DNA of 64,000 nucleotides from Malacoraja senta (GCA_038087875.1 CM075987.1:20586001-20650000); one strand, 5' to 3'. Shown: positions 1 through 63,621, counted from the first letter of the stretch. A program made the numbers and translations. Notes: generated from the sequence alone by a model not told the origin.

Positions 1-29088
<29,088 letters not shown>

Positions 29089-38350: not shown

Positions 38351-39331
38351 CCTTGTCTGAGTATATCACAGATAACCAAGTTAAACACAAAGCGCTGGAG
38401 GAACTCTGAGGGTCAGGCAGCATCTGTGCAGGCAATGTTTACACCCCTTGTAGGGTCAGGACCCTTCTTCAGAATCTGCATGCAAGAGATCCACGACATG
38501 ATCTCTTCGAACAGGATGAGGGATATGAGGTTATGCATCCATGTGAGACGTACTTCTCTTCCATACTTTAGTAATGTATCTGATTTGGAGGCCCTGATCG
38601 AGTCTGAAGTAGGGTTTCCGACCCGAAACGTCGTCAGTCCATTCCCTCCACAGATGTTGCCCGATCCGATGAGTTCCTCTGGCACTTTGTGTGTTTTGCT
38701 CAAGATTCCAGCATCTGCATTTTCTCGTGTCTCCACGTCACGAACAACCGAACACAATTGTCACCAGGAATAAACCAAACATCACGGCGTCCCGGACATC
38801 AAACTCCTCGGTCAGGGGAGACCAGGCAGCTGAAGAGCTCCAGGTAAACAACCCCCCCTCCTCCCCAGCCCCGCATCCCCCTTGGGGTAGAGGGAGCCCG
38901 GTACTCGCAGCCGAGCCCCCTGGTTCACCCCCCCCCCCTTCCCCTCCCCCTCCCGGGCGGCGGGCAGGCCCGACGGTGCTGCAGTGCGAGGGAGGGGGTA
39001 CAGGCGGCCCCTTCGCCCCCGGGACGGCGAGTCTCACCCCCACCGTACCCGCCACCTCGGGTTAAATCCCCCTCCCCGGACTGGGACCACCGGAAGCTTC
39101 GGGGCTTCGGCCTGGTCCGGGGGTCGATATATAGACTCCCCGCTCCACCCAGCCCGGAGCCCCGGGGAATGGAGCAGGAGAACGGCCTGTGCACGGCACC
39201 GGTCCCGGGGCAGGTTTCCCCGGAGCCACGGCTCCGCTTCCCCGGGAGGCTGAGGGAAGATGGCGGCCGAGCGCCGCCGGGAACAAAGCGGCGCCGATCC
39301 TCCGGCCCTGACCCAGCAACCGACACTTTAC

Positions 39332-39520
39332 CTCCGAACTACCGACCTCGGCTCGTTCTCAGGGGTTCCTCCGCCTCTGCCGCAACGGGAAACTGGAGCT
39401 GGCGCCGATGCGGAGCCTGATGGAGGCGGATGGAGAGGAATCCAGGGCCTAGGCGAAAGGATTGAAGAGAAACTAAGTCCGGCCTCGTAAACCGGGGCAG
39501 AGACTGAGCCTCCGGCGGTG
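39332..39520 (-). other. PRRC2B: Putative non-coding first exon of PRRC2B (5' boundary uncertain)
   Basis: Lies in the CpG island; donor GGAG|GTAAAGT with the intron starting at 39331; no ATG in 39332-39500 on the minus strand. Confidence 0.55.
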
Positions 39521-39870
39521 GCGGCGCCTGCCGACAGCACCGGGAACTGCACCCGGGAAACCGCGCCACAGCGGCGCCTGCCGACAGCGCCGGGAACTGC
39601 ACTCGGGGAACCGCGCCACAGCGGCGCCTGCCGACAGCGTCGGGAACTGCTCTCGGGGAATCGCGCCACAGCGGCGCCTGCCGACAGCGCCGGGAACTGC
39701 ACCCGGGGAACCGCGCAAGGGCGGCGCCTGCCGACAGCGCCGGGAACTGCACCCGGGGAACCGCGCCACAGCGGCGCCTGCTGACAGCACCGGGAACTGC
39801 ACCCGGGAAACCGCGCCAGGGCGGCGCCTGCCGACAGCGCCGGGAATTGCAGACAGGGAACGGCACCGGG
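39521..39870. repeat. GC-rich minisatellite, 50-bp unit, ~7 copies
   Basis: Unit GCGGCGCCTGCCGACAGCGCCGGGAACTGCACCCGGGGAACCGCGCCACA starting at 39521, 39571, 39621, 39671, 39721, 39771 and 39821. Confidence 0.95.
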
Positions 39871-40244
39871 ACGGCATCTGGTGGCAGCAGAGGGAACTAC
39901 AGTGAAAGGAATCTACACTGAAGATGGACACAAAATGCTGGTGTAACTCAACGGGTCAGGCAGCATCTCTGGAGAAAAAGAATAGGTGATGTTTCAGGTC
40001 GGAATCCTTCTTCAGAATAATAATAATAATAATAATTAATTTTATTTGCTGGCGCCTTTCTAACACCCAATGACACCTTACAAGGCATAGAATCACAAAA
40101 ATACAAAACACATAATCGGAATAAATTAAATATAAAAACACCACAGTACACAAATCAAGGACAGAATTCAATTACAAAAGCACAAAAAGAAAATAAGAAA
40201 CACAATTTGACAGAATGAGTTGGACACTCGCAGTCTGAAACGTG

Positions 40245-40580
40245 CCTAACCATGATTCTCATGAACTTCTGCAGGTGTACAGTAGAGAGCATATTGACTG
40301 GTTGTATCATTGTCTGGTTCGGCAACTTGAACGTCCGGGAGAGGAAAAGACTGCAAAAAGTTGTGACCACTGCCCAGTCCATCTGTTCTCCCCACCATCG
40401 AAGGGATTTATCGGAGTCGCTGCCTCAAAAAGGCAGCCAACATCATCAGAGAACCACACCATCCTGGCCTCACACTCATTTCACCACTGCCATCAGGAAG
40501 AAGGTACAGGAGCCTGAAAACTGTAACATCCAGCTTCTTCCCTACAGCCATCGCTACAACCTCGTATAGGCTCTGAACTA
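40245..40580 (+). mobile_element. Rex1/Babar LINE 3' RT fragment
   Basis: NFCRCTVESILTGCIIVWFGN...RKRLQKVVTTAQSI is typical of the Rex1 C-terminus; a TGACAATAAA..CTTGACTCTTGA tail lies near 41140-41167. Confidence 0.75.
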
Positions 40581-41261
40581 CAATAGACTATTATTATCAT
40601 TATTGTTGTACTGTTTTGTTTGTTTTTTGAGTGTGTGTGTGTATAATAATAATAATAATGGATTTTATTTACGGGCGCCTTATACCGAGGTCTCAAGGAC
40701 ACCATACAGAGATTTATAGAAAACATATAATCAGAATTTAAAAAAAAAAAAATAGGTTATAAAGACCAATACATAAATCAGGGACAGAATTCCTTCCAAA
40801 AACACAAAAAAAGAAAATCAGAAGCACAATTTGAGGAGAGAGCAGCGGCAATTTAACGCCAGCGTCCACTCTCCCCTCCGACCGCCATCTTGAACACAGA
40901 CTAACAAATACAATTACAAACAATTACATACAAAAATCATCCCCCCACAATGATTTCCACTGTGGGGGAAGGCACAATGTCCAGTCCCCAGCCCCAGTTC
41001 ACCCAAAAAAAGTCAAAAAAAGTATATATATATACACACACACTGAGCTTTTATTTTCTCTCGTTTGTCATATCATACTGTGTTTACATATTCTGTTGTG
41101 CTGCGGCAAGTAAGAATGTCATTGTTTTATCTAGGATATATGACAATAAAACACTCTTGACTCTTGATATTCTCCACAGATGCTGCTTGACTGGCTGATT
41201 TCCTCCAGCTCTTTCTATCATATTTTGTAAACTGGCACCTGCAGTTCCTTGCATCTACACA

Positions 41262-41590
41262 CACAGTGTCAGTTTTCACAGTGCTAACATTGCCAGTGCC
41301 AGTGTTATCAGTGCAGACCATCAGTGCAGGCCAGTGCTCCCAGTACAGACACTCCCAGTGCCAGTGTTCCCGGTGCGAGCATTCGCAGTGTTTGTGTTTG
41401 TAGTTGGAACACTCCGCATCGGTGCAAGTGTTTCCACTGGGGAGCGTTTGCATGCCAGTGTCCCCAGTGCATTGTATTTGAAGTACGGACACTCCTACTG
41501 GCCATGTTGCCAGTGTAGGCACTGCTGGTGCCAGTGTTTCCAGTGCAGACTCTCCCACTGACAGTGTTTCCAGTGTGGACACTCTCACTG
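41262..41590. repeat. Degenerate CAGTG-based low-complexity tandem repeat
   Basis: Many CCAGTG/CAGTGT motifs at short irregular spacing. Confidence 0.7.
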
Positions 41591-42983
41591 ATCATATTCC
41601 CCACAGTTTTGATCTTTCATTGACACCTTGTTACTTTTGTCCCACCTCTTCACCTGGACGCAAGAATCCATGAAAACATATTGTTTGACTGAATTCAAGG
41701 TGAATGCTTCTGCCCGTGGCCTTTAATTATACACGGGGCAGGTGTGGGATGCTGCGGTCTGCGGTCTGGGCTGTGACTTCAGCCGACACAAACCCATACC
41801 CCCCCCCCCCACCTCCATAACCTCACCCCCGCCTCTGGTTTAATATTTCCTCTCACCTCTTGTAACATCGATCATGTTTAATCTACAATCAAATATCCTG
41901 CAGGCTGGGGAAGGATTGAAATAAACAGACAAGATGCAATAGGCCGCAGGAAAGTAAACGTTGATGGCACTGGGGGCATTCAAGCCCAGAGGTTGCTTCC
42001 TCCTGCCTTGGCACAGCAACTGCCCTACAATCCCCAATGGGAGTGTCATGGGTTCCTGATCCATCAACTGAAACTTTCCTACATTCTGGAATTCTCACCG
42101 CAAGAACCTCTTCTCTCGGTGTCCACCAGTCTTTGAAAGCAGCCTCAGCTAAGTCTGAAGTGGATTACTGAGGAAGCCTGGTACGTGTGAGGTGTGGAGA
42201 CACAAGGAACTGCAGATGCTTGCAGCTTGATTTTGCACTGGAGTGGAGAGCTGGAGTAATTTCCCGGTTCAGGAAGCATCTGTAGAGGAAAATGGACAGG
42301 CGACGTTTTGGGCCAGGACCCTCCTTCAGACTGATTGTAGCAGTGGGGTAGAAAGCTGGACAAGAGGTGGGGAACGAACGGGACAAAGCCTGGCATGTAA
42401 TAGGTGGAGGAAGGAACTACAGATGCTGGTTTACACCAAAAATAGACACAAAAAGCTGGAGTAACTCAGCGGGTCAGGCAATATCTCTGGCTTCAACTTC
42501 AAACCTGAAGAAGGGTCTCAACCCGAAATGTCACCTATTCCTTTTCTCTAGAGATGTTGCCTGATCCGCTGAGTTACTCCAGCTTTTTGTGTCCATCTTA
42601 AGCGATAGGTGGATACAGGTGACGGGGGTGGGGGTGTTGATTGGCAGATGGGTAGACAAAGGCCAGAGATGAATCAGAGACAAAAGAGTGTTGCATAAGA
42701 AGAGAAAATGAGTGAAATAAGAAGCCAGAGGGAGGGGGGTAGGTGGAAGGGATGGAGATACAGTCCTTCAAACGAGACATTAAACCAAGGCTCCATCACG
42801 CCCTCTCAGAAGCAAAAATAATCCTAAAGCACCAATTTAATGAAGAGCAGAAGCATTACCAGCAGGGGTGGTGAACGATTGGCAGCCCCGCCAACAGTCT
42901 GTTTATATTTTTGTCTTTTTTTAATTTTCAGTTTGTTTTCTAAGTTTGTGTAAATGTTCTCCGGCTTGTTTTATGTGGGAGGG

Positions 42984-43207: not shown

Positions 43208-44573
43208 CAACAAGTTCAGCTGTTCTACATGCATGCACCGCTTCCTCGAGCGATAACTCTGGCCGTCTCAGGAGCTCTGATCTGAGCTTTTGATCGGTGA
43301 TACCATTCACTAAAAGGAAAACAGTCAAGGGAACATCACAGTCAGGGGAAAAGTTTGTTTCAGATTCTTACCTTGCCGGAGTCGCGATGTTTCCGCGTCG
43401 CATCTCCAGTCGCTTTTCGGCCTATCATCGGATGGAGATGGAGGCCTCCTCGGACAGGCCTTGGGCCCCACCGCGGGGCGCGGACTTAATATCGGAGCCG
43501 ATCCCTTGCCTGGGATCACTCCAGCCACAGCCTGCGGACTTACCATCAAGAGCTCGCATTCTGGGAAGAGGCTAGTCGGGAGCTCCGACGAACGCAGAGG
43601 TTCGACCAGCCCCGACGTGGGGTCCGATCGCCCGGTGCGGGGGAGTTGACATCCCCCCCGATGCAGGAGCTGATCACCCCGACGCGGAGGGCCCAAACGC
43701 CGCATGCTACGGGAGTCAATATCGTCCCGTCAACGGAAGGCTCGAGGCCCCTCGACAGTGGGAGAGCTGAGGGAAGAGATTGAACTTTTTTTTCGCCTTC
43801 CATCACAGTGAGGAATGTGGAGTCTCTGTGGTGGATGTTTATGTTAAAATGTGTTTTGTGTGTTCTGTTGCCTTTTATCTGTATGGCTGACTTGGCAAAT
43901 GAAATTCCTCGTATGTTGCAAAACATACTTGGCTAATAAAGTATTATTGTGATTGTCTGAGCCAACAGGTGATGAAAACAGATTGTGCGGTGATTGTCAC
44001 TCTGCTGTTTACTGAAGCCTGCTGTGTGCTTGTCGAAACACTTCATTGGCTGTGAAACATGTCAGGCCATCAGAGATTGTGAAAACATTGTATTCATGGA
44101 AGTCTTTCTTAACGTCAAACCGTATTCTGAGATTTCAACACATCCAGTCTTCTGGTTTCAACGCCCGATTTCTATTAGGAATTGCAAAATCGGACAGCGG
44201 TTCAGAAGGGTCTTGACCCGAAACGTCACCCATGCCTTCTCTCCGGAGATGCTGTCTGTCCTGCTGAGTTACCCCAGCTTTTTGTGTCTATCGAATGCTT
44301 GTCCATGTCAGGGACTGTATCATTGCAAGTCCCTGTGCCTGTGATGAGTGGCCAGTTGGGAGTTACTCCAACTCTCTGTTGGTCTGCAGGGATCTGCCTC
44401 GCCAATAACATCACCTGAACCTTGTCCATCAACAACAGGCTGAACGGATCAGATGAATTCCCTTGTCTACTGTCATCAGTCTCTTTGTGTACCTATCGCA
44501 CGCATTTCGCAATGAGAAGCCCACCCGCTTTAATTAATTAAACATATTTACAGCTTGTGTATGATTAAAAGTT

Positions 44574-44759
44574 CAAGAAGGAACTGCAGATGCTGGAAAT
44601 TCGAAGGTAGACAAAAATGCTGGAGAAACTCAGCGGGTGCGGCAGCATCTATGGAGCGAAGGAAATAGGCAACGTTTCGGCCTGAAACGTTGCCTATTTC
44701 CTTCGCTCCATAGATGCTGCCGCACCCGCTGAGTTTCACCAGCATTTTTGTCTACCTAC
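44574..44759. mobile_element. Palindromic Penelope-derived mini-element
   Basis: ~74-bp near-perfect inverted arms centred near 44680; TSD GATTAAAAGTT (44563-44573, 44760-44770). Confidence 0.85.
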
Positions 44760-45102
44760 GATTAAAAGTTGTTCTACCCCAGCCTGGTGAAACCATTTGT
44801 GTAAGTGGTTCGATGCAAGTTCCCTCAGTATCATGCAGAAGAGATTTCAGCACCATCAGTAACTGTCTGTCCTTGTTCCCTGTTTAATGGCTTGCTCGAT
44901 GTGTAGGCTGCAATATAATTAGCTATTCAGCAGAGAACTAAAATCAAAGCTGCCATTAGTGCTTTCATTTAACGACGTTCACTTCAGAGAGAACGATTTA
45001 CGGGTTGAGAGAAGCTGCAAAGCACGGGCACTCAAAATAATACTGAATGTAGAAGTGATTTCCAAAGGTGTCCCTCAAGCTCCCAACTCAACATGGTTAG
45101 TA

Positions 45103-45317
45103 GAAGATAGACACAGAAAGCTGGAGTAACTCAGCGGGACGGGCTGCATCTCTGGAGAAAGGGAATGGGTGACGTTTCGGGTCGAGACCCTTCTTCAGAC
45201 TCGACCCGAAACGTCACCCATTTCTTCTCTCCAGAGATGCTGCCTGTCCCGCTGAGTTACTCCAGCTATTTGTGTCCATCTTCGGTTTAAACCAGCATCT
45301 GCAGTTCCTTCCTATAC
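45103..45317. mobile_element. Palindromic Penelope-derived mini-element
   Basis: Inverted terminal-repeat copies around the hammerhead motif; 17-bp TSD ACTCAACATGGTTAGTA (45086-45102, 45318-45334). Confidence 0.88.
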
Positions 45318-46030: not shown

Positions 46031-48315
46031 TTAATCTTCAAATAACCTTTTCTTCAGATGGCTACGGCTGCGTTTGTGCCCTGAAGGTGATGGTGGACTT
46101 CATCAATGCTATCTGGCTTTATTGAGATGTCTTTCACGAGACACGGGAAATAAATATTGGGATACAGTCTCAGAAAGATGTGCACATGTGGGAAAAACGA
46201 TGTGGATTAGGCAATGCTCAGACTCTGGCTAAAGCTGTGCATCCAGCTGGGCACCAGAGTTTAGAAAGGATTGTAAGACCTCGGAGGGTATGCAGAGGGG
46301 TTTTATGGAATGATACCAGAGGTAAGAAGCATCAAGATCAGAGAAGGTTAAAGGATGAGACCAAAGACTGCAGATGCTGGGATCTGGGGAAAGGTGAAGT
46401 GCTGGAGGAACTCAGTGGAGGAATTGGACAGACAACATTCCGGGTCAGGAACCTTCTTCAGACTGAAGCGCCTGAAACTGTGAATTCCTGACCCATAACA
46501 TTATTTGTCCTTTTCACTCCACAGATGCTGCCTGACCTGCTGAGTTCCTCCAGCACTTTGAAGGTGAAACGAAGATTTAATAGCCGGCAAAGGTAACAGG
46601 CTTGACAAGGAAGATAGCATTTAGAGATTGGCAGAAGGGTCAGTACTGTTTTATCTTTAGTTCTATATTTAAGAAGAGGGGTTGGTGGGCACAGGTCACA
46701 AAGAAGTAGCACATAGAAAGGCAATGGAATGGATGGGATTGCTCAGCTGGGAGCTAGCATGGACCCAATGGGCTGAACGATCTCCTTCTGTGTTGTAATG
46801 AGTGCAACTGTTGCAGAATGACAGATAGGGAAGGAGCACTTCTTCTTTTTGCGTGTGGCGTGCACAGCCCCCCCCCCTCCCCCCCCCGGCCCCCCCCGTG
46901 CACAGCCTAAAGTTGTAGGACAACTTGTTCTTTGTGATCTATTTGTTTGTGCACGCCGGGTTGATTGCATTCGGCGAAACAGGGTGGACCACGTGAAGGT
47001 TGCAATCTCCCACCCCGGAAGGAGCACTGTGATGATTGGACAGTTGCACAGGAAGCAGAATTCTGTGCAGTATGGGTTTGCTTTTATGAATGAAGTTATC
47101 AATTGGATTGGCCCTATGAATTATTGAAAGGTTATTAAAAATCAATTCCTAGGTTGTATGAATCATTGCAAGACTGTCATATTTCGGACGTCATTTCTCA
47201 TTCTTGAGATTACGCTGGGCCTTTATAAGAACACCTATTCAACATGAGTTGAGTTTAGTTCACTGTCACCTGTACCAAGGCACAGTGAAAAGCATTTGTT
47301 GTGTGCTAACCAGTCAGCGGAAAGACAATACATGACTACTATCGAGCCATCCACAGTGTACAGATACATGATAAAGGGACTAACGTGAATAACGTTTCGA
47401 GCAAGATAAAGCCAGTAAAGTCCAATCAAAGATAGTTCTACCTCAGACATCCAATGTGATTGTGAATTTTTCCTATGACTAAACATACCATGGACCAGAA
47501 GCTGATGGTGTCAGAGGCCAGGTTAGCTGACAGTGGTGTGACCTGTCTGAGCAGCAGTTGTCAGTAACGGTGAAGTGGGATGAGGCAGAGACAATGAAGG
47601 AGCGCAGCAGATTGAGTTTGATGATTCGTTTCATTTTGTGTTGACAGACAAGGCAGCATCTTGTGTTTCATTCTAAACGGTCTTATTTCAGGGGCATTTT
47701 GTTCATGATTACCATATCAGGACACAATGAATCACCTTGGATACGATGTGCATGGCTGAAGAGCTATCAACATTTTATGCTTCCCTTCATGGTTAATGGA
47801 GATTGATAACAGAAAGCCCAATAAGGGTTGCAACCACTCCACCGGGAGACACGGGGATGTTGGATAAATCAACAACTTTTTGAACACCAAATATAAGGAT
47901 TAAATTGCAAATCCTTTTCAGTTGTAAGGTTGGAATGGTCATACCTTCTTCTGGAAGGTTGCAATCTGTTTTATGAAGAAACAAACGCAATTGCATGAGG
48001 GAGGAAGGTCTTTAGACCCAGTGACAATGAAGGAATAGTCAATGAATGTCCAAATAGGATCCGTATGTCAATTGGTGGGAAATCAGAGTGAAGGATGCTG
48101 TGTTCAAATGCTGCCTTTGTACATTTTAGATTAAAACAATCTTTGGTATGGTTTGAGAGAGTTTGCAAAGAAGCCTTGTTTCATGTTCCTTTTCTAGGTC
48201 TGCACAAAACTTGAGTCTTTAATTTACAACTTAAGTCTTTAATGTTTCACTCAATGCTGGCAACAAGACTAGTCACACTGTCTGCCGATAGGATAAACTA
48301 TATACAAAACATCTC

Positions 48316-49420
48316 ACAAACATCCTACAAACCTACCGACTCCCATGGCTATCTGGACTACACTTCTTCCCACCCTGCTTCCTGTAAGGACTCCATCCCC
48401 CACTCCCAATTCCTCCGTCTACGCCGCATCTGCTCCCAGGATGAGGCGTTCCACACCAGGGCATCTGAAATGTCCTCATTCTTCAGGGAACGGGGGTTCC
48501 CCTCCGCCACCATAGATGAGGCTCGCACCAGGGTCTCTGCCATACCCCGCAACACTGCTCTCTCTCCCCATCCCCCCACTCACAACAAAGGCAGAGTCCC
48601 CCTAGTCCTCACCTTTCACGCCACCAGCCATCACATACAACAAGTGATCCTCCGTCAGTTTCGCCACCTCCAACGTGACCCCACCACTCGCCACATCTTC
48701 CCATCTCCCCCCATGTCTGCCTTCCGCAAAGACCGCTCCCTCCGTAACTCCCTTGTCAATTCTTCCCTTCCCTCCCATACCACCCCCTCCCCTGGTACTT
48801 TCCCTTGCAACCGCAAGAGATGCAACACTTGTCCCTTCACCTCCCCCCTCCACTCCATTCAAGGACCCAAGCAGTCGTTCCAGGTGCGACAGAGGTTCAC
48901 CTGCATCTCCTCCAACCTCATCTATTGCATTCGCTGCTCTAGATGCCAGCTGATCTACATCGGTGAGACCAAGCGGAGGCTTGGCGATCGTTTCGCCGAA
49001 CACCTCCGATCGGTCCGCAATAACCAACCTGAACTCCCGGTGGCTCAGCACTTCAACTCCCCCTCCCATTCCGTATCTGACCTCTCTGTCCTGGGTCTCC
49101 TCCATGGCCACAGCGAGCAACACCGTAAATTGGAGGAAATGCACCTCATATTCCGCTTGGGCAGTCTACATCCTGGTGGCCTGAACATTGAATTCTCCCA
49201 ATTCTGCTAGCCCTTGCTGTCCCCTCCCCATCATCAGCCCTCTGGTTGTCTCCTCCCATCCCCCAGCCCTCGGGCTCCTCCTCCGCCTTTTTCCTTTTTT
49301 CCTTTCTTCTCCCCACCCCCTATCAGTCTGAAGAAGGGTTTCGGCCCGAAACGTTACCTATTTCCTTCGCTCCATAGATGCTGCTGCACCCGCTGAGTTT
49401 CTCCAGCATTTTTGTCTACC
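48316..49420 (+). mobile_element. Penelope-like retroelement, 5'-truncated (RT C-terminus, Zn-finger linker, GIY-YIG endonuclease, terminal repeat)
   Basis: YKPTDSHGYLDYTSSHP..K.SIP.SQFLRLRRICS; CNRKRCNTC; LIYCIRC..C..IYIGETKRRL..RF.EH; stop at 49210; 13-bp TSD TACAAAACATCTC (48303-48315, 49421-49433). Confidence 0.93.
49328..49355 (+). ncRNA. Minimal hammerhead ribozyme motif in the Penelope-like terminal repeat
   Basis: CTGAAGA-AGGGtttcggCCC-GAAA-CGTT: CUGAnGA and GAAA core boxes flanking a short stem II. Penelope-like elements are known to carry minimal hammerheads. Confidence 0.7.
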
Positions 49421-52400: not shown

Positions 52401-53770
52401 CAGTGATCTTACATGAATCCCATTAGTTTATTCTCCTCCCATTCACAGCAACACCTTCCCCACCGCTCAGATTTGAACACCCACCTGCTCACATTGGAGG
52501 CAATTTGCAGCCACAACCAGCCCACCAACACACGTACCTTTGGGTTGTGGGAAGAAACCAGAGAAACCAGAGGGAATCATCGTGTGGTCACAGCAAGAAC
52601 GTGCAAACTCCACATAGTCAGGGCTGAAACCTGTGGCTGTGGCTCTACGATGCAGCAGCTTCACTTGGCCCATTAGCATTCCCACCCCAGGAGAAGGCCC
52701 TATAAAGACAAGCAGCATCTTATCCTGCACAATACCACTGCACCGAGCATTCCTGGCGTTACATTTGAAGGAGAATCTGGAAAATTAGTCCCAGTCTTCT
52801 TCCCACTGGAGAGATTTAGGAAGGGAATTTCAGAGCTCAACTGAGGCATGGCTCCTGCACATTCAGGGAAGTGCAGGGGTGCAGGCGAGTGGAATTCACT
52901 TTGCTGTGAGTGGACTTTGCTCAGACAGTGGCGGGAACTGTTCTTACAGGCGATTCAGGGAAGTGCGGTAATGTTAAAGGATTGGGAAGTTTACAGATAT
53001 TGCAAAGGCCAAAATACAGGAGGGATTTGAGCAGGTGGATGAGAAGCCAAGACGTGGGAATGTAGCTCTGTGACTCCAGGAGTGGCAGTAAACAAGGCTT
53101 AGTCAGATTTAGGGCAGCAAGTGGAACGTAATTGAAGATAATTTTAGAAAGACTTAGCTGACCGTGGAGCTGCTTTGTGCAGCAATGGCTGATTTGGATG
53201 TTTTATTTTCTCCAGTGATGATGCTGCACGGCTATAATAGTAACCTGTAATTTACTGCTGGAGCAGGGGAGGCAATCATGTTCCATAATAAACTCTTTCA
53301 TTTTTTATTTAACTGGGCAAAGGATCGAACACAGGTCACTATTTTGAATGTTTGCTGGGAGTAATTCCCAGACAACAAATGTTGTGTTGCAGTTTGGGGG
53401 GAGTTTGTTGTGGAAGACCAGCTGTGGTAGTCCTGACATTGCCCTGAAGACTCCACCCCAGAAATCACCACTGATGTGAATTTCTTCAGACATGCTGACG
53501 TGGAGAAAAGTGCTTTGGACCTGCAGGTTCTTTGTTTGATAAAGCAACGTTTTCCTTGTGTCCTGGGCCAGTATTCTTCCCATTAGCACCGAGGCGGGCG
53601 AGTGGAATTCAGTTTGCCGTGAGTGGATTATGGCAGGAACTGTTTAGTTTCATCGTTTTAGAGATACAGCGCGGAAACAGGCACCTTTGCGCGCCGACCA
53701 CATTAACACTATCCTACACCCACTGGGGACAATTTTTACACTTACCAAGCCAATTAACCTACAAACCTGT

Positions 53771-54174
53771 TAAAGAAGGAACTGCAGATGCTGGAAAATC
53801 GAAGGTACACAAAAATGCTGGAGAAACTCAGCGGGTGCAGCAGCATCTATGGAGCGAAGGAAATAGGCAACGTTTCGGGCCGAAACCCTTCTTCAGACTG
53901 ATAGGGGGTGGGGAGAAGAAAGGAAAAAAGGCGGAGGAGGAGCCCGAGGGCTGGGGGAGGGGAGGAGACAACCAGAGGGCTCAGCCAGGGCTAGCAGAAT
54001 TGGGAGAATTCAATGTTCAAGCCCCCAGGATGTAGACTGCCCAAGCGGAATATGAGGTGCATTTCCTCCAATTTCCGGTGTTGCTCGCTGTGGCCATGGA
54101 GGAGACCCAGGACAGAGAGGTCAGATACGGAATGGGAGGGGGAGTTGAAGTGCTGAGCCACCGAGAGGTCAGGT
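53771..54174 (-). mobile_element. Penelope-like 3' fragment inserted in a V-SINE
   Basis: Near-identical reverse complement of ~49035-49420. Confidence 0.88.
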
Positions 54175-54248
54175 TCACGGGGAGAATGTACAAACTCCGT
54201 ACAGCAGCACCTGTAGTCAGGATCGAACCCGGGTCTCTGGCACTGTAA

Positions 54249-55460: not shown

Positions 55461-55847
<387 letters not shown>

Positions 55848-58535
55848 TCACAGGGTCAACAACTTAATCAAACATTTTGACCAAACACATGAAAGGAAAC
55901 GCTTTACCTAGATGTTAAGTGTGTCATTATGTAGAAATATTAGCATCCTAATGGACTAAAGGCAAGAGATCTGTACGAGGAAGTTTGCTGTGTAGACGGT
56001 AAGATTTTATATTTTCATTTCAATGTACACCACATAATAAATATGCAGTTACAATGTCCATCTTTATTAAGGAGGCTCTCTTTATATAAAGCTTGAGTAT
56101 TTGGAGACGTAAGAAACTGAGATCTGGGATCTTGTGCAAAACACAAAGTACTGGAGGAACTCAGCAAGTCAGGCAGCATCTGTGAAGGGAATTTCTCCCC
56201 ATTTGTCCCACCATCTCCCACCCCCACCACAATCGCCTTACTGCTTTCCCCTCCTTTGTGCGCTCAACTCCCATCCTAGTCCCGCGTTTCCTTATCCTCC
56301 CTCTTTCCCCTCCCCATGTCTCCTTCCACCGTCTGGCTTTACTTTTCACTCCTCCTCTTCTCTCCTTATCTGACCACCTTTTTATTTACCTCCTTTTCAC
56401 CTCTAGCCTTTGTCACTTACTCCGCCCATCTGCCAATCAACCTCCCCCCTAATCTACATCTACCTATCACTTACCAGTCCACACCGCCCTTCCCCAGTTT
56501 GCTCTCCCCTAACCACAATCAGTCTGCAAAAGGGTCCCAACCCAAAATGTCCCCTATCTTTCTTCCACGCAAGGGAAGGGAACACACACATGCTCTTTGA
56601 CCCGCTGCAGCACTTTTTTTTGCTTAAGCTTGTGTATTTGTTTTGGTGGAGCTCTGAAAACTAATGTTTAATTGTTTAATCCTGGTGCGTTAAGCCCGAT
56701 TCATGGAACCATTTTGGTGTCATTTACTGGGTAAAAGTGACTCATGATTTTCATCTATCAAAGAGGAAACTGCATGAGGAAAGGAATAAAACAACATGTC
56801 ATTAACATTTCACGTAGAAAAGTACAGCACAGGAACAGGCCCTTCGGCCCTTAATGTCTGTGCCAAACATGATACCAAGCTAAAGTAAGCTAATTTGCCC
56901 TCCATACCCTCCTATCCAAGTGCCTATCTGAAAGCCTCTTAAATGCCATTATCAAATCTGCCTCCAGGCACCCACCACTCTCTGAGTAAAAAACATGACC
57001 CATACATCTCCTTTAAACTTTGAACCAAGTCCTTTGGTCTAGACACGAGCGTGCAATGAGCTAAACAAGACGTAAGGAGGTTTGTGTGGTGTATTTATCA
57101 TGTGACAAATGATTTCTGTCCTGGAAATTCAGTTTAGATAAAGATAGAATAGGGAGATTCCACAATCTACCACTGTCTGGCCAGCAGGCTGAGAACGGAG
57201 AGCTCTGCCTTTCACCACCTGATATGACGTGGCCCAGAATTTAACTTGTGGCAGACTGGGTTCTGGTGGAGATGGATGCAGCTTCTGAAGGCTAAATGTC
57301 GACAGGGTCCATTGACAACATGCTGGGCAGAACGTTGAGAAATATCCATGTGACCTTAGCCCTTAAATCACCAGCTTCACTGGGTCAGATTCTGGTGAAG
57401 TGACTCTTGCAGAAAGCCCACAAGCTATTTTCAGATAACTACTGCTCTATATGATTTAGGACTTGCCAAGTGGCGCGTCAACTTTCTAGCAATTACATTT
57501 CACCTATTTTTGGTTTCCTAAAAGAGCATTGTGCCAAATCAGATAACCAAATAAAACTCTAGAATTAGTCCCCAAAAAAACATTTGAACCAACTTAAGAG
57601 TGGTTCACACCCAGAAGGAAGTACAAAAACATGGGCTGCACACCATCTGTCAGGACCACATTTAATGCAGCTGCCTATTTGTTGGTCAGCAGTCAGAGAA
57701 TCCTTAAAGCCAATCCTTAAAGGCACACTCCGCAGGGGAGTACATGCAATATGACCACCGTGGGGAAGTGAGAGGGAGCAGAGGACAGGGAGAGAGCTCA
57801 AGGACTTTGCAAAGGACCTTGAAGTCCTTTCAAAGCGAGAGTAATAGCAGAAGTAAAATCCCATGCGCCAGGGGTGATGGGGGTGGGGAACAGTGTGCAA
57901 GAGCCCCAATTGGACAAAGAGGAGCTTGACACGAATGGCGGGAACGGTCTCCTCCACGAGGGCGAATATCCAGACACTGTTACAATGTCACATCAAATTT
58001 CATGATCTCACCAGATATATTAAAGTGAGCGCACTGACATACTGTGTAAAAAAAAACAAAGAGCTGAAGGAAGTCAAAGAGCCAGGCAGCATCTGCGGAG
58101 GGAATGGACAGGCGACGTTTCGGGTCACGATCTTTCATCAGATTGATTGGAGCAGACGGGGGGTGGAGGGGGAAGTCGGTAAAGAGAGGTGTGGGTGGGA
58201 CAAACCTGGCAAGTGATAGGTAGATACAGGGGGGGGGGATTTGGTGTCAGGTGAAAAGTCCATATGCAGTGATACTCAGTTAAGTTGTTCTCAATGGACA
58301 CCATTCCTTGGACAAGGGCTCCCTTATGTTTTCTGTATCGTGCAATCAACCAGTGAAACGATATTATTAGGAAAGAACAACCTCAATAGGACAGATCGGA
58401 ATTCCAAATGTTGGGATTGGGAACATTGACCTTCTGACAACAGTAAATGACTGCAATATGGTTGAATTCTGGCCACACACATTATGTTTTGGGATCTCCG
58501 ATCTAATAGCTCAGAAACCCACGTGGAAGGTTTAA

Positions 58536-58699
58536 TTTAGTTTAGTTTAGTTTATATACAGAGCGGAAACAGGCCTTTCAGTCCACTGAGTCCGTGCTGA
58601 CCAGCGACCCCTGCCACACTAACACTGTCCTACACACTAGGGACAATTTACCAATTATACCAAGCCTATTAACCTACAAACCTGTACGTCTTTGGAGTG
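58536..58699 (-). mobile_element. V-SINE 3' half
   Basis: (TTTAG)n tail and 3' body matching the other copies. Confidence 0.75.
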
Positions 58700-60885
58700 T
58701 CAAATGATTTTTGTGTATTTTGTGGAATTCCATAGTCTCACCATTCTCTAAGTAAATACTGTATATTGACACCTGGGCAAATTTCAAGATGCTTTCTGTG
58801 TTAACTCTTTCACCACAGCCTCCCAGTGATGGCAGAGGGATATTAACCAATACCAAACTCCTAAAAACAGTTGGAGACTTCTCCTCTGCAACCACCTGAC
58901 ACTCTATTTAGGTTCTATGTAAGTGGTTGGCACCTGTGCATCTGTACGTATCACCTGCCGTATTGCATTCCACAGTGATGACACTTCATAAATATATCAT
59001 TGGCTATAGGTCATTGCCCGAAGTGCTGAGCTTTGGAAGATGTTACGGAAAGTCAAACATCCTTTCTGTTTCTGTTGCTACTTGAGGGTTGCGGTTGCCT
59101 CTTTGTAGCACCTTCCCTTCGCCTCCCTCGCCCCTGACTTTTGTTTCATTTGGATTGTTGGATTTGCAAATGGGACTAGCTTAGATGGAACGCAGCTTGT
59201 TGACATGGTTAAGTTCGGCCGAAAAGCCCGATTCCATGCTGTGTGATTATACCAAGGGAGCTAAGGAATATAAGTGCAGTAAGGTAGGGTTCAGCTAAAA
59301 TATCAGATAAGGCCTGTTTGAATAATAGGGAGGAGGGGAGAACAGGTTTGAAGGGTTGAACAGCCTGCTCCTGATTCTATTTTTATGACCTTGAGTTCTT
59401 GTTTAAATTGGCACCAAATTCAATCTCTGACACCATCTTTCCCATCTCTCATCTTTTCTCATTGTGCTGAACTTTGCTTGAAAACAATTGTCAGCAAGCT
59501 AGTCAGTTCTTGAGTTTACTAAATGAATAAAGAATAAAGACAGGTCCAGATTCAATTGACATGGTATGGTATCCATTGTACTCTGGGGCCAGCATCTTTA
59601 CTGGACATGAACAGTATCAACATAAACAGAGTCAACACTACTTGAGACATGCAAATGAACATTGCCAGATTTCATCATTAATTTACAAAACGTGTCGTAT
59701 AAATCCCTCACTTACAATTTAAACATATTGATCTTTGAGCAATTGGTGAAACATTTTTTAAGTTCAGCTTTCTGGTAGACTGCTGCATTTACCTGGAATT
59801 GTGCAGCATGGCTGGATGTCAGCCATGTGCCATAGTTTCAGTACAGGCTGTTTAAGAGATCTATACAATCTCCCACTACAATCTTTTCCCCAAAGTCTTC
59901 CAAGTAATATCCAATTCCCTATTGAACGTTATTTGATCTGCTTCCACCACACTTTCAATGCATATTAGATCTGAACATCTAACGTTAAAATATGCTAATT
60001 TTTCCTCTTATTCTTTTATCACACTTTCTAAATTTGCGCCTTCTGACTACAAGATGGAGAACTTTGAACACCTCTACTAAAACCACCTTAACCTTCTTTG
60101 CACGTAGGAGAACGATAAAAGCCTCTCCAAACAACTTAAGTGCGTCATCCCTGGTCACATTCTAATAAATCTCCTCCGCATCAAGCCCATACCCTTGCCA
60201 TTCATCCTGAGGTGGATTGGCCAAGTTGGGACACAGTCCTCCAGCAGAGGCACAACTGATGATTTATAAAGGTTTAGCATGACTTACAGGGCGTGTGGAA
60301 TTTTGCTTCTGGCTGGCTTTTGATGCCAGAAATATTTTCCAAATAAAATGACTGGTAATTTTCACAGAACATACATTCCTTAGCTCAGATATTGGCAAAG
60401 ACATTACCAATCTTTCCCTTTCAGGCGTAGCAAATTTCCAGTATTTATTGAAGACATTTTGAGTGGAAACAGGCCGGAATCATTTCATTGATTGAATTGA
60501 AACTATTTGACAATATGATCAATGCCAATGCATCTCCCTCCTACTAACGCCATTAAGAAAAAAAGTTATTTTCCTCAGGATAATTTAAAATAATGGAATT
60601 TCTTATATTGATACACACATTTATTTTTCACAACAAAAGTGCTTTTGCTGGCATTTACTGTAAGTATTTCTGAAGTATTGCAACGCAAGAAAACATTGTA
60701 GCCAATTTGCAGACAACAATACCTCCCAAATGACAGGGAGATAAGTGACCAGTTAATCCATTTCAGTGTTACGTGAAATGGAAAAAAATATTGGCCGATC
60801 ACCAAATATCTAACCAATACTAAGGTGAGATTTGCTGGCTTTGCAGCTGCATTATATTTTTAATCATGTCTAAAATTTATTGCTG

Positions 60886-61014
60886 TAGGAAGGAACTGCA
60901 GATGCTGGTTTAAACCGAAGATAGACACAAAAAGCTGGAGTAACTCAGCGGGACAGGCAGCATCTCTGGAGAGAAGGAATGGGTGACGTTTCAGGTCGAA
61001 ATCCTTCTTCAGAC
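60886..61014 (-). mobile_element. Penelope-derived mini-element
   Basis: Same family; near-TSD AAAAT(T)TATTGCTG on both sides. Confidence 0.8.
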
Positions 61015-63055
61015 AAAATTATTGCTGATTCATTAGTATCAATACATTTGGTTTCCAACATTTACTTCAATTATAAGTCAAGAAAGGCCCCACAATAACA
61101 CTACCGATTAGTGCTTTTTTTGCGATGGTAGTACTGGCACTTCTGAAATGTCATTACTTCATTTACTGGCCTCGTGACATGAATGCTGATTAATTGTACA
61201 TACTGGCACCTTTTTGTGTACAAAAAAAACATCAGTTCTGATCATGAAGAATACATAACATTGAACACATTCTTCCCAAAGGGATTGCCACTGGGACATA
61301 CCGATCATACCTGGGTCTGTTGTCGACTAACGCGTAGAGATCGATTGAAAGATAAATGAAAAACTCCATTCTTATTTGTTATCATCACTGGCTCATGTGA
61401 CCACCCGGGACAGTGGGAAGTGGAGCTTAAATCCTTAAATTCGATTTTGTTTCAAGAAAGAGTTATGTAAGTATCTACTGCCCATTCTCAGTTTTTCTTG
61501 CAAAGTGATAAATCTCCAAAAAAAAAACTGTAGTTGCTGGACATCTGAAATAAAAACAGAAAAGGCCGGAAACACTCAGCGGGTCAGGCAGCATCTGTGG
61601 AAAGAGCAACAGTTAACATTTTAGATCGATGATCCTTTGTCAAACTGGGAAAGCTTAAAGTTGCAGAGAAGGTGGTGGTAGGGGTGGATAGGACAAAGGT
61701 ATTTTTTGAGATAGGTTGAGGCTTGGTTGTCATGGGGATGAGTTGCCTGGTCAACATGGTTAATGAGGGCAGTTCAAGGGTGATTATGTTCTCTGTCTGT
61801 GTTACGTGCGAATAGCATGGGCTATGAGGTAAATCCAGTTGTCAGATTATTCTGACGGAGAGAGAAAACTGAGCCAATATCATAGATGAATGACTACAAG
61901 CAGAAATGGCCAGTTCCAATGTAGAGAAAAAAAAAACAAGTTACCTGAAAGTGCAAAGTTCAATATTGATGCTGGAAGGCTGCAAGTGTCCAGAAGATGG
62001 GGCATTGTCCCTCAGGCAATAGTAACAGTGCATGAGGGTATGGAGTGATAGATCACAGTGGGTGTGAGGTGGATAATTAAAGTAGCAGGCGAAACGTGTA
62101 GGAAGGAACCGCAGATGCTGGTTGACACAGACGTTAGACACAGATTGCTGGTGTAACTCAGCGGGACAGGCAGCATCTCTGGATAGAAGGAATGTGTAAC
62201 GTTTCGGGTCGAGACCCTTCTTCAGACTGAGAGTCAAGGGAGAGGGAAACAAGGGTGTGAATGCGAGAGATCAAAGGAGACAAAGTTCAAGGAAAATGTG
62301 GAATAGATCATTGTTAACTAAGGGACAACGAGTCATACAATGTAACATTTAATCAGAGGACAGTCAGACTGGTTGGAGAACTAGGATGGGGGAGGGATGG
62401 AGTGAGAGTAGCAGGGTTGGGAAGACAGTCAGATTAGATGAAGTAGTTATTTTTTTAACTGGTCTAGACACAATAGGCAAAGCATATCCCTTCTATGTCG
62501 TAAAGTTTCCGTGACTCCATGTGGCTCAGTGTCAAGTATTTTCTAAACACGTTTCTGTGAAGTGTCTTGGAACTTTTAACTCTGCTAAAAGAGTTGTATA
62601 AATACAAGCTGTTGCTGCTGGAACAGGGAAATGTTTCAACATTCCTGATGAATTTAAAGCCTGCTCTACATATTTATTATCTACTCAATTAATAATTCAG
62701 TTTTATCAAATGCAATTCATTTATTTTATTAATTGACCTCCACTACACCATCGCCTGCATTGGCCGCATTCTATCATCTATGATTTGTACAGATCAATTC
62801 TTCATATTCCTGACACAGTGATCTTTATATTCAAAGGAGAAATTCCATTCCATGCTAATTCTATGCTAATGTATAGCAGTGAACCGATTTGTTTAAACTC
62901 ACCAACAGTGTGTGTGAGTGTGTGTTTTTGTGTAAATGAGAGTGAGAAAACAATACTGATAAATAGATGAAAACAAGTCTGACGGTGGTGGAAGGCAGTG
63001 ACAGGGCACAACAGACAATCATTTGTATGCATGTCTGTGTGAGAGAGTTATGTGT

Positions 63056-63179
63056 AGGAAGGAACTGCAGATGCTGGTTTAAACTGAATATACACACAAA
63101 AAGCTGGAGTAACTCAGCGGGACAGGCAGCATCTCTGGAGAAAAGGAATGGGTGACGTTTCGGGTCGAGACCCTTCTTC
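63056..63179 (-). mobile_element. Penelope-derived mini-element
   Basis: Reverse complement reads CTGAAGAAGGGTCTCGACCCGAAACGTCACC; TSD AGAGTTATGTGT. Confidence 0.82.
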
Positions 63180-63621
63180 AGAGTTATGTGTCGGTCAGTT
63201 TGGATCAGAATTGTGGGTATGTTTGTGTGTAACAGTTGTACAGGAGATCTTCTCCACTCTTGACCACATGTGGCCAATCCAAACTATGAATAGTGCAAAG
63301 CTAACGCATGACTACGATGTAGCTCTGATCCAGGTGATATGGTACTGCCACACATTTTGTGTTAGCTGGTTTTCTACGGGGAGATCATTTCATTGAATCC
63401 GTACCTATTCCCCCATTGAAGACGTGCGTGGCTATCAATCTCTCAAATCCATTTACTCTCAGTGTTCCCCTCTCCTTTTCTAACTTTTGGACAAGGGTCC
63501 AATTATCAGCACTCAAAATCTCTGTTTCGTCATTCTCAACAGAAACAGAAAATGCGGGAAGCACTCAACTGGTCGAGTAGTATCTGTGAAAAGAGAAACA
63601 GAGTTAATGTTTCAGTCAGAG

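What the first reader, a model, noticed from the sequence alone, without database searches (positions are those of the whole stretch)
38380..63180. Dense family of hammerhead-ribozyme-bearing mini-retroelements derived from a Penelope-like element
Seen: about 20 short (100-250 bp) copies of one sequence (GAAGGAACTGCAGATGCTGG...AACTCAGCGGG..AGCATCT...GACGTTTCGGGTCGAGACCCTTCTTCAGAC) near 4080, 13740, 15740, 24640, 26160, 38400, 38600, 39920, 42200, 42410, 44200, 44580, 45105, 46360, 49330, 49780, 51115, 53775, 58060, 60890, 62100 and 63056. Its opposite strand reads CTGAAGA-AGGG..CCC-GAAA-CGTC, a hammerhead core (CUGAnGA / stem II / GAAA / GUC). The same repeat terminates the GIY-YIG elements at 48316-49420 and 15736-16444. 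Several copies have their own 11-17 bp TSDs. Established: Penelope-like elements carry minimal hammerheads in their pseudo-LTRs. Inference: the ribozyme-containing terminal repeat is inserted on its own (as an extreme 5' truncation or a retrozyme-like non-autonomous element), scattering potential self-cleaving sites through introns and intergenic DNA.
Basis: partly seen in the sequence, partly recalled or inferred. Interest (0 to 1): 0.75.

Follow-up and report, generated by a model that had tools for sequence, protein, structure and literature searches.

The report
Penelope-like retroelement tail fragments with hammerhead motif
The short repeats are dead tail-end copies, single or joined head-to-head, of a very abundant and recently active Penelope-like jumping gene. 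They carry that family's already-described minimal hammerhead motif, so the catch is real but of a known kind.

Summary
In detail: all 22 listed copies exist, and a profile finds 33 fragments in the window. The repeat is the inter-ORF pseudo-LTR segment of a Penelope-like element (PLE). [quoted passage not shown]

On the element's sense strand the segment runs from a CUGAAGA–helix II–GAAA–CG–UC/UU box to two alternative 3' ends about 30 nt apart, matching the PLE "tail".

The density is genome-wide, not local. Hits cover 5.6% of the window and 5.9% of six arbitrarily chosen 10-kb stretches. The genome holds 41,995 exact boxes.

Copies are target-primed insertions with 9–21 bp target-site duplications (TSDs):
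- 3' ends of longer truncated PLEs;
- solo units starting at the box's 5' edge;
- head-to-head pairs, usually one long-tail and one short-tail arm.

The box fits the published PLE minimal hammerhead. However, helix I is only 2 bp, Rfam finds nothing, copy ends ignore the cleavage site, and head-to-tail junctions are rare (135 against 3,892 head-to-head). A retrozyme-like element and scattered active ribozymes are therefore not supported.

It is a new member of a known kind. This scan reached the same verdict on other shark-type DNA.

The parts
48272..49207 (+). 5'-truncated PLE ORF fragment (aa 932-1238 of the 1238-aa reference ORF; Cys linker and GIY-YIG endonuclease), ending in a stop at 49208-49210
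   Evidence: tblastn 93% identity; ORF listing
49211..49322 (+). polypyrimidine 3'UTR between the stop codon and the hammerhead box; ends in a Y-tract plus CAG (splice-acceptor-like)
   Evidence: sequence read
49323..49426 (+). pLTR module, short-tail form, family A box (helix II GGGU-UUCG-GCCC, site GUU)
   Evidence: nhmmer hmm 2-105; exact box at 49328
15736..15868 (-). pLTR module, long-tail form, at the 3' end of an older truncated PLE
   Evidence: nhmmer hmm 2-135
15963..16451 (-). PLE ORF fragment (aa 1074-1237, 79% identity)
   Evidence: ORF
53770..53901 (-). pLTR module, long-tail form, at the 3' end of a truncated PLE
   Evidence: nhmmer hmm 2-134
53994..54176 (-). PLE ORF fragment (aa 1178-1238, 93%); the element's 5' end corresponds to about position 907 of the reference L030
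24633..24734 (-). solo unit, short tail, starting at the box's 5' edge; 15-bp TSD
26149..26275 (-). solo unit, short tail, 5' end reads G+AGUCUG, preceded by a 22-nt extra partial copy; 11-bp TSD seen by eye
60884..61014 (-). solo unit, long tail, starting at GUCUGAAG; 13-bp TSD; helix II carries an A.C mismatch (GGAU..ACCU)
63053..63185 (-). solo unit, long tail; 15-bp TSD (one mismatch)
45094..45316 (.). head-to-head inverted pair. The minus arm is hmm 3-112 (short tail) and the plus arm hmm 19-134 (long tail). One insertion with an 18-bp flanking repeat
44572..44764 (.). head-to-head pair joined near the AACGUU palindrome, lacking the CUGAAGA box; long plus short tail; 14-bp TSD. Scores as a sub-threshold miRNA-like hairpin in Rfam
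42405..42603 (.). head-to-head pair (arms hmm 50-134 and 6-105); 10-bp TSD
46367..46560 (.). older head-to-head pair (arms hmm 2-123 and 18-91)
4077..4301 (.). older head-to-head pair (arms hmm 2-128 and 4-100)
13745..13923 (.). older head-to-head pair (arms hmm 3-80 and 4-127)
51113..51245 (-). long-tail module continuing upstream into a family-B-type 3'UTR
62097..62230 (-). long-tail module continuing upstream into a family-B-type 3'UTR; exact box
38376..38475 (-). older solo copy, short tail, GAAA region decayed
38600..38725 (+). older solo copy, long tail, 5' end reads GAGUCUG
39890..40018 (-). solo copy starting at UCUGAAG next to an (ATT)n run
41161..41250 (+). fragment without the box (hmm 37-128)
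42204..42334 (-). older copy continuing upstream into a pyrimidine-rich 3'UTR
44204..44298 (+). solo copy truncated inside the CUGAAGA box (hmm 11-105)
49772..49892 (+). older copy with an upstream pyrimidine-rich 3'UTR; box decayed (UAUGAAGA, CAAAAUGU)
56111..56192 (-). fragment without the box (hmm 43-128)
56519..56616 (+). old decayed copy with an upstream 3'UTR
58048..58146 (-). old copy with a CUGAUGA box variant and an upstream 3'UTR
61524..61647 (-). old, strongly decayed copy (UUGACAA)
63537..63617 (-). weak old fragment (E 1.2e-5)

Best explanation
The repeat is the terminal non-coding segment (pseudo-LTR, pLTR) of endonuclease-bearing Penelope-like elements (PLEs). At least two PLE lineages in this 1.94-Gb genome carry it, one of them very young.

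The element unit, in order, is:
- a 1238-aa ORF with RT, Cys linker and GIY-YIG domain, then the stop codon;
- about 114 nt of polypyrimidine 3'UTR ending in UCAG;
- the box UCUGAAGA-A-GGGU(YUCG)RCCC-GAAA-CG-UY;
- about 70 nt more;
- two similar modules (UCCAGCAU, 8-9 nt, CCUUC), which end about 105 and 134 nt from the box;
- about 35 nt, then the ATG of the next unit.

Shown here:
- Insertions end at one of those two sites. This is the PLE 'tail', taken to reflect two internal reverse-transcription start sites.
- Insertions carry 9-21 bp TSDs.
- 42% of sampled units begin within a few nt of the box's 5' edge.
- About a quarter of units are head-to-head pairs that are single insertion events, and these pair a long-tail arm with a short-tail arm.

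Inferred:
- The element's protein starts cDNA at the internal start sites on an RNA whose 5' end lies at A of UCAGUC. This RNA end could be an initiator-like transcription start or a processing site.
- The result is 100-135 bp dead-on-arrival copies.
- Both nicked target strands prime a cDNA, and the two cDNAs join at the terminal or helix II palindromes. This gives the inverted pairs.

The hammerhead-like box is the family's min-HHR motif, inherited as a passenger in these copies. With a 2-bp helix I and no helix III, it could cleave at best weakly, as a dimer or with protein help. Solitary genomic copies are not expected to be active ribozymes.
For: PLE identity:
- Pfam gives RVT_1 (26.4 bits) and GIY-YIG (19.2 bits), both just under their cut-offs.
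- The ORF holds DKG, YIDD, a C-x4-C-xx-C linker and LIY..YIG motifs.
- A tandem pair has a period of 3996 bp, and the full inter-ORF sequence was read.
- The hammerhead strand is the ORF's sense strand.

Abundance and youth:
- The protein search gave 112,820 first-look candidates. All 121 scored were 94-100% identical to the query, mostly 96-97%.
- 38 of 40 scored 5' probes are 100% identical.
- The genome holds 41,995 exact 28-nt boxes, with 0 in the control.
- There are 37 hits in six 10-kb stretches taken at round coordinates, covering 5.9% of them.

Two 3' ends: the histogram of 146 hits has modes at hmm 105 (15 hits) and 134 (44 hits).

5' hot spot: 23 of 55 units start at hmm 2-5 without a PLE-like upstream sequence, and 11 continue upstream. 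These are my tallies from the listing.

Extra G: 7 of 28 boxes in a non-PLE context are preceded by xGAG, against 0 of 48 in a PLE context, where 40 read TCAG. One-sided Fisher p is about 5e-4 (my arithmetic).

Inverted pairs:
- 15 of 55 units are inverted pairs, and 11 of these have a flanking repeat of 10 bp or more.
- Among 18 unselected pairs, 13 are long+short, 2 long+long, 0 short+short and 3 unclassifiable. P of at least 13 of 15 at p=0.5 is 0.004 (my arithmetic).

Literature agreement:
- Two RT start sites, the tail, and both strands cut and extended in vitro (PMC11167929, main text read).
- 5' truncation, partial tandems, an adjacent inverted 5'-truncated copy, and a tail often at one end only (PMC8557442, passages).
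- The min-HHR consensus and 2-bp helix I cases (PMC4209133, text, supplement).
Against: - None of 13 long copies with a visible 5' end starts at the proposed RNA 5' end. They start at reference positions 686-1492, six of them at 842-892. If that site were the main promoter start, unit-length copies beginning there would be expected.
- No RNA reads could be examined, so the RNA 5' end, its cap and any cleavage are unobserved.
- The clade (Neptune-like) rests on one linker motif, without a tree.
- Both Pfam domain hits are below the curated cut-offs.
- Copy-number extrapolation rests on 124 kb.
- The classification of 'upstream continues as PLE' used a pyrimidine-content threshold of 0.70 and is approximate.
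- The box is somewhat better conserved than the module average, both within copies (0.90 against 0.85) and between lineages (25 of 28 against 79 of 101). Some function of the box in active elements is therefore likely and remains unexplained.
Confidence: 0.85

Rival explanations
1. The short units are a separate non-autonomous, retrozyme-like element. Tandem copies would be transcribed, cut by their hammerheads, circularised and reverse-transcribed by the PLE enzyme.
For: - The unit carries a hammerhead core.
- 135 exact tail-to-box head-to-tail junctions exist in the genome, with 0 in the control.
- A 2026 preprint argues that animal non-LTR retrozymes derive from PLE pLTRs and that monomers are widespread (10.64898/2026.07.22.740005; abstract and part 1 of 2 of its Results read).
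Against: - Head-to-tail junctions are 135, against 3,892 head-to-head junctions and 41,995 boxes.
- No array of the unit was found in 124 kb.
- Unit ends lie at the box's 5' edge and at the PLE tail sites, not at the cleavage site. Only 2 of 146 hits start at hmm 34, no more than neighbouring positions.
- The unit is colinear with the autonomous element's own pLTR.
- Helix I is 2 bp, and there is no helix III.
Confidence: 0.06
2. The identity is the same (PLE tail copies), but the 5' hot spot is not an RNA end. The reverse transcriptase would simply stop or switch template after passing the structured box on long read-through RNAs.
For: - A second cluster of 5' ends lies inside helix II: 11 of 146 hits at hmm 16-20. 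This suggests structure-related stops or joins.
- Long copies do not start at the box.
- Depth along the element rises towards the 3' end in contig data, which is a weak measure.
Against: - A stop caused by structure is expected before the hairpin, on its 3' side, not 7-9 nt beyond it.
- The extra G replacing the templated C (7 of 28 against 0 of 48) fits run-off at a real RNA end.
- Head-to-tail junctions often read tail directly followed by AGUCUGAAG (listing).
Confidence: 0.25
3. Read on the first reader's strand, the repeat is a tRNA-derived SINE (A-box-like UAACUCAGCGG, B-box-like GGGUCGAGACC), or the inverted pairs are MITE or fold-back DNA transposons.
For: - By eye, there are two box-like matches about 50 nt apart on that strand.
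- Many copies are palindromic.
Against: - ARAGORN finds no tRNA-like gene in the window.
- That strand is antisense to the PLE ORF with which the repeat is contiguous.
- TSDs vary from 9 to 21 bp rather than having a fixed length.
- The arms are unequal (long plus short tail) and truncated at variable points.
Confidence: 0.02

Closest known systems
Minimal hammerhead motifs (min-HHR) in the pLTRs of metazoan Penelope-like elements (Cervera and De la Pena 2014, PMC4209133)
   Same: - CUGAAGA box.
- One unpaired nucleotide before helix II.
- G10.1-C11.1 closing pair.
- GAAA.
- Palindromic C-G at 15.2/16.2 with no loop 3.
- U-H cleavage dinucleotide.
- Location in the pLTR downstream of the ORF.
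- Most genomic copies are single and on truncated elements, with some close pairs on opposite strands.
   Different: - Helix I is only 2 bp here. The published alignment mostly shows 3-5 bp, with 2 bp in Culex, some Drosophila including D. virilis, and Oikopleura.
- The young lineage has U at the cleavage position and a 6-nt AACGUU palindrome.
- No cartilaginous fish is named in their Table S1 or in the stored part of their figure S3 alignment (the held file is cut).
- Activity was not tested here.
Canonical EN+ PLE insertion architecture (Craig et al. 2021, PMC8557442) and the Anolis Poseidon element PAc (Frangieh et al. 2024, PMC11167929)
   Same: - Strong 5' truncation and partial tandems forming pLTRs.
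- An inverted 5'-truncated copy abutting the 5' end.
- A 30-40 bp tail, often at one end only.
- Two internal RT start sites.
- Both target strands used.
- Uncleaved RNA as template.
   Different: - Here the start sites lie in the 5' leader, about 35-65 nt upstream of the ATG rather than inside the ORF.
- The hammerhead box lies about 165 nt upstream of the ATG.
- The bulk of insertions are only 100-135 bp, or 200-250 bp palindromes.
Animal non-LTR retrozymes (Cervera and De la Pena 2020, PMC7229834, seen only in the search listing; Li et al. 2026 preprint)
   Same: Short, non-coding, hammerhead-bearing, PLE-related sequence present in very many copies.
   Different: - Retrozymes are head-to-tail arrays with canonical type I hammerheads that give circular RNAs.
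- Here arrays are rare, the hammerhead is minimal, and unit ends follow PLE reverse-transcription start sites.

Membership tests
Penelope-like elements (EN+) | Reverse transcriptase with PLE-type motifs (DKG; YxDD) | tested here: met
   DKG at aa 644 and YIDD at aa 885. Pfam RVT_1 scores 26.4 bits, below the 29.6 cut-off.
Penelope-like elements (EN+) | C-terminal GIY-YIG endonuclease | tested here: met
   LIY-x9-YIG at aa 1142-1160. Pfam GIY-YIG scores 19.2 bits, below the 22.6 cut-off. The same domain occurs in the window ORFs.
Penelope-like elements (EN+) | Partial tandems forming pseudo-LTRs | tested here: met
   Two units lie 3996 bp apart on one contig. 6 of 20 loci are colinear with the reference right to the locus edge, about 1.2 kb upstream of the box, so a preceding unit's ORF lies upstream.
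Penelope-like elements (EN+) | Optional 30-40 bp tail (two 3' ends) | tested here: met
   The 3'-end histogram of 146 hits has modes at hmm 105 and 134.
Penelope-like elements (EN+) | Adjacent inverted 5'-truncated copies | tested here: met
   15 of 55 units in 124 kb are inverted pairs. The genome holds 3,892 exact head-to-head junctions.
Neptune clade of PLEs | Zn-finger-like CX2-5CxxC linker between RT and EN; placement in a tree | tested here: inconclusive
   The linker C-x4-C-xx-C is present at aa 1105. No phylogeny was made, and Nematis shares this feature.
PLE minimal hammerhead (min-HHR) | Core CUGANGA ... GAAA, with an extra nucleotide after position 9 and a G10.1-C11.1 pair | tested here: met
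   Sequence read. 41,995 exact boxes. Helix II is predicted by RNAalifold: four of its five pairs are standard in 20-22 of 22 copies and the fifth in 18.
PLE minimal hammerhead (min-HHR) | No loop 3, palindromic 15.2/16.2, U16.1-H17 site | tested here: met
   CGUC in 16 and CGUU in 35 of 60 intact motifs.
PLE minimal hammerhead (min-HHR) | Helix I of about 3-5 bp flanking the core | tested here: not met
   Contiguous pairs from the core: 2 bp in 45 motifs, 3 bp in 4, and 0-1 bp in 11, of 60. The published alignment does include 2-bp cases.
PLE minimal hammerhead (min-HHR) | Self-cleavage (as a dimer or with protein) | not testable with these tools
   Folding only. The hammerhead-compatible monomer fold is -4.2 kcal/mol against an MFE of -11.4 for family A. 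The predicted dimer is an extended duplex.
Rfam hammerhead families | Match to a curated covariance model | tested here: not met
   No hammerhead match in the window at gathering score or at E up to 10.
Animal non-LTR retrozymes | Head-to-tail tandem arrays of the hammerhead unit | tested here: not met
   135 junctions genome-wide, against 41,995 boxes and 3,892 head-to-head junctions. No array was found in 124 kb.
Animal non-LTR retrozymes | Unit-length circular RNA joined at the cleavage site | not testable with these tools
   No RNA run was listed as a holder.
tRNA-derived SINE | tRNA-like head on the transcribed strand | tested here: not met
   ARAGORN found 0 genes. That strand is antisense to the PLE.

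The most novel reading that the evidence does not exclude
The roughly one million mini-copies may be an in-vivo footprint of how PLEs integrate.
- The enzyme starts at the first internal start module it meets on a transcript whose 5' end (possibly capped) lies at the hammerhead box. This gives 100-135 bp 'leader-only' cDNAs.
- The two nicked target strands use the two different start sites (long tail on one side, short tail on the other).
- The two cDNAs are then joined through the palindromes that are also the hammerhead's helix II and helix III.

If so, the hammerhead box would be retained in part for a DNA-level or RNP-level role in integration rather than for RNA cleavage.
Probability: 0.3. 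Interest if true: 0.5.

Novelty: new member of a known kind. Interest (0 to 1): 0.25.

Why it matters
PLE transposition is still poorly understood. This genome offers tens of thousands of young, TSD-flanked mini-insertions and about 4,000 intact head-to-head junctions. Start sites, 5' ends and strand coupling could be read from these statistically, to test the in-vitro model of internal initiation on both strands.

For genome annotation, one pLTR segment makes up an estimated 5-6% of the sampled DNA, much of it as near-perfect palindromes. These mimic miRNA hairpins and can break assemblies.

It does not open a new class of ribozyme or mobile element.

Tried and rejected
- Rfam at gathering score and at E up to 10 gave no hammerhead. 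It gave only sub-threshold miRNA-like hits on the palindromic pairs and a near-threshold SNORD62.
- RNA evidence: no RNA holder was listed.
  - All four runs laid were contigs, three of them only guessed to be RNA.
  - No table of molecule starts or ends was produced, and no splice or circular joint at the box appeared among the rows shown; most rows were not shown.
  - Contig loose ends do sit at the box's 5' edge and near the short-tail site, but contigs cannot show RNA ends.
- RNAalifold on 22 copies gave only helix II and a small GCUG/CAGC hairpin (-8.5 kcal/mol, almost no covariation).
- The 8-nt complementarity between AGAUGCUG and CAGCAUCU (the most conserved blocks) was not in the consensus fold. 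I did not test it further.
- I considered and dropped a hammerhead cleavage at AUC|AGU as the source of the 5' ends, because only 3 nt separate it from C3.
- I also dropped a fold-back self-copy origin of the inverted pairs, because that predicts equal tails, whereas 13 of 15 classifiable pairs are long+short.
- A full-text search for four 13-mers of the box found only unrelated primer matches. Repbase and Dfam could not be consulted, so the family may already be catalogued there.
- Supplement file 1 of PMC4209133 was not searchable, and file 2 is cut.

Full report
**Observation**

blastn with the copy at 15731-15870 gives 33 HSPs. An nhmmer profile built from 12 copies gives 33 hits. Five further fragments and six second, inverted arms were added.

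**Which strand, and what it belongs to**

Three ORF fragments with a GIY-YIG motif lie in the window:
- 48272-49207 (+);
- 15963-16451 (-);
- 53994-54176 (-).

In each, the repeat follows the stop codon after a pyrimidine-rich 3'UTR of about 95-115 nt. The strand that reads CUGAAGA...GAAA...GUC is the ORF's sense strand.

**The element in the genome**

The window lies in a 1.94-Gb assembly.
- A search with the window's ORF fragment gave 112,820 first-look candidates. All 121 scored were 94-100% identical to the query, mostly 96-97%, with open frames up to 1224 aa.
- A 265-nt probe from the ORF's 5' end found 38 of 40 scored matches at 100% identity. Two of them lie 3996 bp apart on one contig, which is a tandem pair.

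Reading across that junction gives the unit. In order it is:
- the stop codon;
- about 114 nt of polypyrimidine ending in AUCAG;
- the box UCUGAAGA-A-GGGU-UUCG-GCCC-GAAA-CG-UU;
- about 100 nt;
- a further 30 nt;
- about 35 nt, then an ATG that opens a 1238-aa frame.

That frame has DKG, YIDD, a C-x4-C-xx-C linker and LIY..YIG motifs. It has weak Pfam RVT_1 and GIY-YIG matches, both just under their cut-offs. This is a canonical endonuclease-bearing Penelope-like element (PLE). The linker suggests the Neptune clade, but I made no tree.

A second lineage, family B, is the commonest among short copies. It has a different, longer 3'UTR and GIY-YIG remnants that are 64-78% identical in protein. Even so, its box-to-tail module is 25 of 28 identical in the box and 79 of 101 in the rest.

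**Abundance**

- The exact 28-nt box occurs 41,995 times in the genome, with 0 in the control.
- In six 10-kb stretches taken at round coordinates, the profile finds 37 hits covering 5.9% of the DNA. In the window it finds 33 hits covering 5.6%.
- Extrapolated from this small sample by my arithmetic, that is about a million fragments.

Only intact boxes are enriched in the window: 7 there, against 1 in the other 60 kb.

**Anatomy of the copies**

3' ends are bimodal, at profile positions about 105 (15 hits) and 134 (44 hits) among 146 hits. Each end follows a similar module: UCCAGCAU, then 8-9 nt, then CCUUC (sequence). This matches the optional 30-40 bp PLE tail and the two internal reverse-transcription start sites mapped for the Anolis element (PMC11167929; PMC8557442).

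5' ends were tallied from the 55 insertion units in the 124-kb sample. These are my counts from the listing:
- 11 units continue upstream into a PLE-like 3'UTR;
- 23 start within profile positions 2-5, at the box's 5' edge;
- about 14 start at positions 6-16;
- the rest start further in.

TSDs: flanking direct repeats of 10-21 bp occur in 15 of 55 units, against 3 of 55 in a shifted control.

Fifteen units are head-to-head pairs with tails outward, and 11 of these have such a flanking repeat. Each pair is therefore one insertion. Among 18 pairs not chosen by my own queries, 13 combine a long-tail arm with a short-tail arm, 2 are long+long, none is short+short and 3 are unclassifiable. P is about 0.004 for at least 13 of 15 at p=0.5 (my arithmetic). 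Genome-wide there are 3,892 exact head-to-head junctions but only 135 tail-to-box head-to-tail junctions.

**The 5' edge**

Where the box has PLE sequence upstream, the four preceding bases are TCAG in 40 of 48 and never xGAG. Where it does not, 7 of 28 read xGAG. One-sided Fisher p is about 5e-4 (my arithmetic). An untemplated G in front of AGUCUG fits cDNA run-off at a real RNA 5' end at the A of UCAGUC.

That this sequence resembles an initiator element, and that cap-derived G additions are known for other retroelements, comes from my own recollection and not from a call.

Against a main promoter start there: none of 13 long copies with a visible 5' end begins at that site. Six begin 315-360 nt upstream.

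**Is it a hammerhead?**

The box fits the published min-HHR consensus for metazoan PLEs in every sequence feature (PMC4209133: text, alignment):
- CUGANGA;
- an extra nucleotide after position 9;
- the G10.1-C11.1 pair;
- GAAA;
- a palindromic C-G with no loop 3;
- U-H at the cleavage site.

Several results weaken the case for an active ribozyme:
- Helix I is 2 bp in 45, 3 bp in 4, and 0-1 bp in 11 of 60 intact motifs. The published set is mostly 3-5 bp, with a few 2-bp cases.
- No Rfam hammerhead model matches.
- The core columns are only modestly better conserved than the rest (0.90 against 0.85). The best-conserved 7-mers lie elsewhere, in AGAUGCU and CAUCUGCAGUU.
- The three differences between the lineage A and B boxes fall at positions a hammerhead tolerates: the loop, U-A to U.G, and N17 C to U. 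By chance that is not unlikely, about 0.2 by my estimate.
- The youngest B sub-family has an A.C mismatch in helix II.
- Predicted folds do not favour the active form. For family A the hammerhead-compatible fold is -4.2 kcal/mol against an MFE of -11.4, and the predicted dimer is an extended duplex.
- Copy termini ignore the cleavage site: 2 of 146 hits start at position 34, no more than neighbouring positions.

The literature reports no activity for single min-HHRs, low activity for dimers, and protein-assisted cleavage that is dispensable for insertion in Anolis.

**Mechanism proposed**

Shown here: PLE identity, the two 3' ends, the TSDs, the 5' hot spot, and single-event inverted pairs with unequal tails.

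Inferred:
- The enzyme initiates at the internal start modules on RNAs whose 5' end is at the box, giving 100-135 bp dead copies.
- Both nicked target strands prime, one at each start site.
- The two cDNAs are joined at UCAG-N-CUGA, at helix II, or at the AACGUU palindrome. Junction sequences of these kinds are seen.

A fold-back self-copy would give equal tails and is not favoured.

**Comparison and novelty**

Several features are already in print:
- min-HHRs in PLE pLTRs;
- their mass occurrence as single truncated copies;
- close pairs on opposite strands;
- inverted 5'-truncated neighbours;
- the one-sided tail;
- the derivation of animal retrozymes from pLTRs.

My string search of full texts did not find this particular box sequence. 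I could not consult repeat databases. This scan reached the same verdict on other shark-type DNA (e1-7788964, e1-7788970).

The finding is a correct catch of a known kind. The retrozyme-like and 'scattered active ribozyme' readings are not supported.

Noticed in passing
window 1952-2033 (-): A C/D-box snoRNA-like match to SNORD62 scores 38.8 bits, just under the gathering score of 39 (E 3e-4). It is probably a real snoRNA gene.
   Followed up: no
window 44608-44753 and 45167-45218: The head-to-head pairs form near-perfect hairpins. These score as sub-threshold plant and animal miRNA precursors in Rfam (for example MIR8670, 92 bits against 150). This is an annotation trap and a possible source of double-stranded RNA.
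   Followed up: partly
window 49270-49327; L030:1150-1204 and 1365-1372: In every lineage the box is preceded by a long pyrimidine tract ending in CAG, like a 3' splice site. In the young lineage the ORF's ATG sits in AAG|GUAUGC, like a 5' splice site. D. virilis Penelope is reported to have an intron ending at helix I. No RNA was available to test this.
   Followed up: no
L026, L029, L031, L032, L043, L045 (reference L030 positions 842-892); window 53770-54190 (position about 907): The 5' ends of long copies cluster loosely 300-360 nt upstream of the box, inside the end of the ORF: 6 of 13 ends, plus one window copy nearby. This could be another RNA start or a truncation hot zone.
   Followed up: partly
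L030:1280-1337; window 60884-60940: The two alternative 3' ends each follow a similar module (UCCAGCAU, 8-9 nt, CCUUC). CAGCAUCU is complementary to the highly conserved AGAUGCUG about 55 nt upstream. This is a candidate recognition structure for the reverse transcriptase.
   Followed up: partly
window 26252-26275: A 22-nt extra partial copy (helix II 3' strand to just past the cleavage site) is joined to the 5' end of a full solo unit, inside one TSD. It looks like a template switch.
   Followed up: no
window 36001-40000: This stretch has the highest G+C of the window (0.52, against about 0.40-0.43 in the first half). I did not examine it.
   Followed up: no
genome C5:81147873-81207313: Three identical tail-to-box junctions (spacer TGG) lie within 60 kb, and a fourth lies about 3.7 Mb away on the same contig. 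They suggest a locally duplicated or arrayed copy.
   Followed up: no
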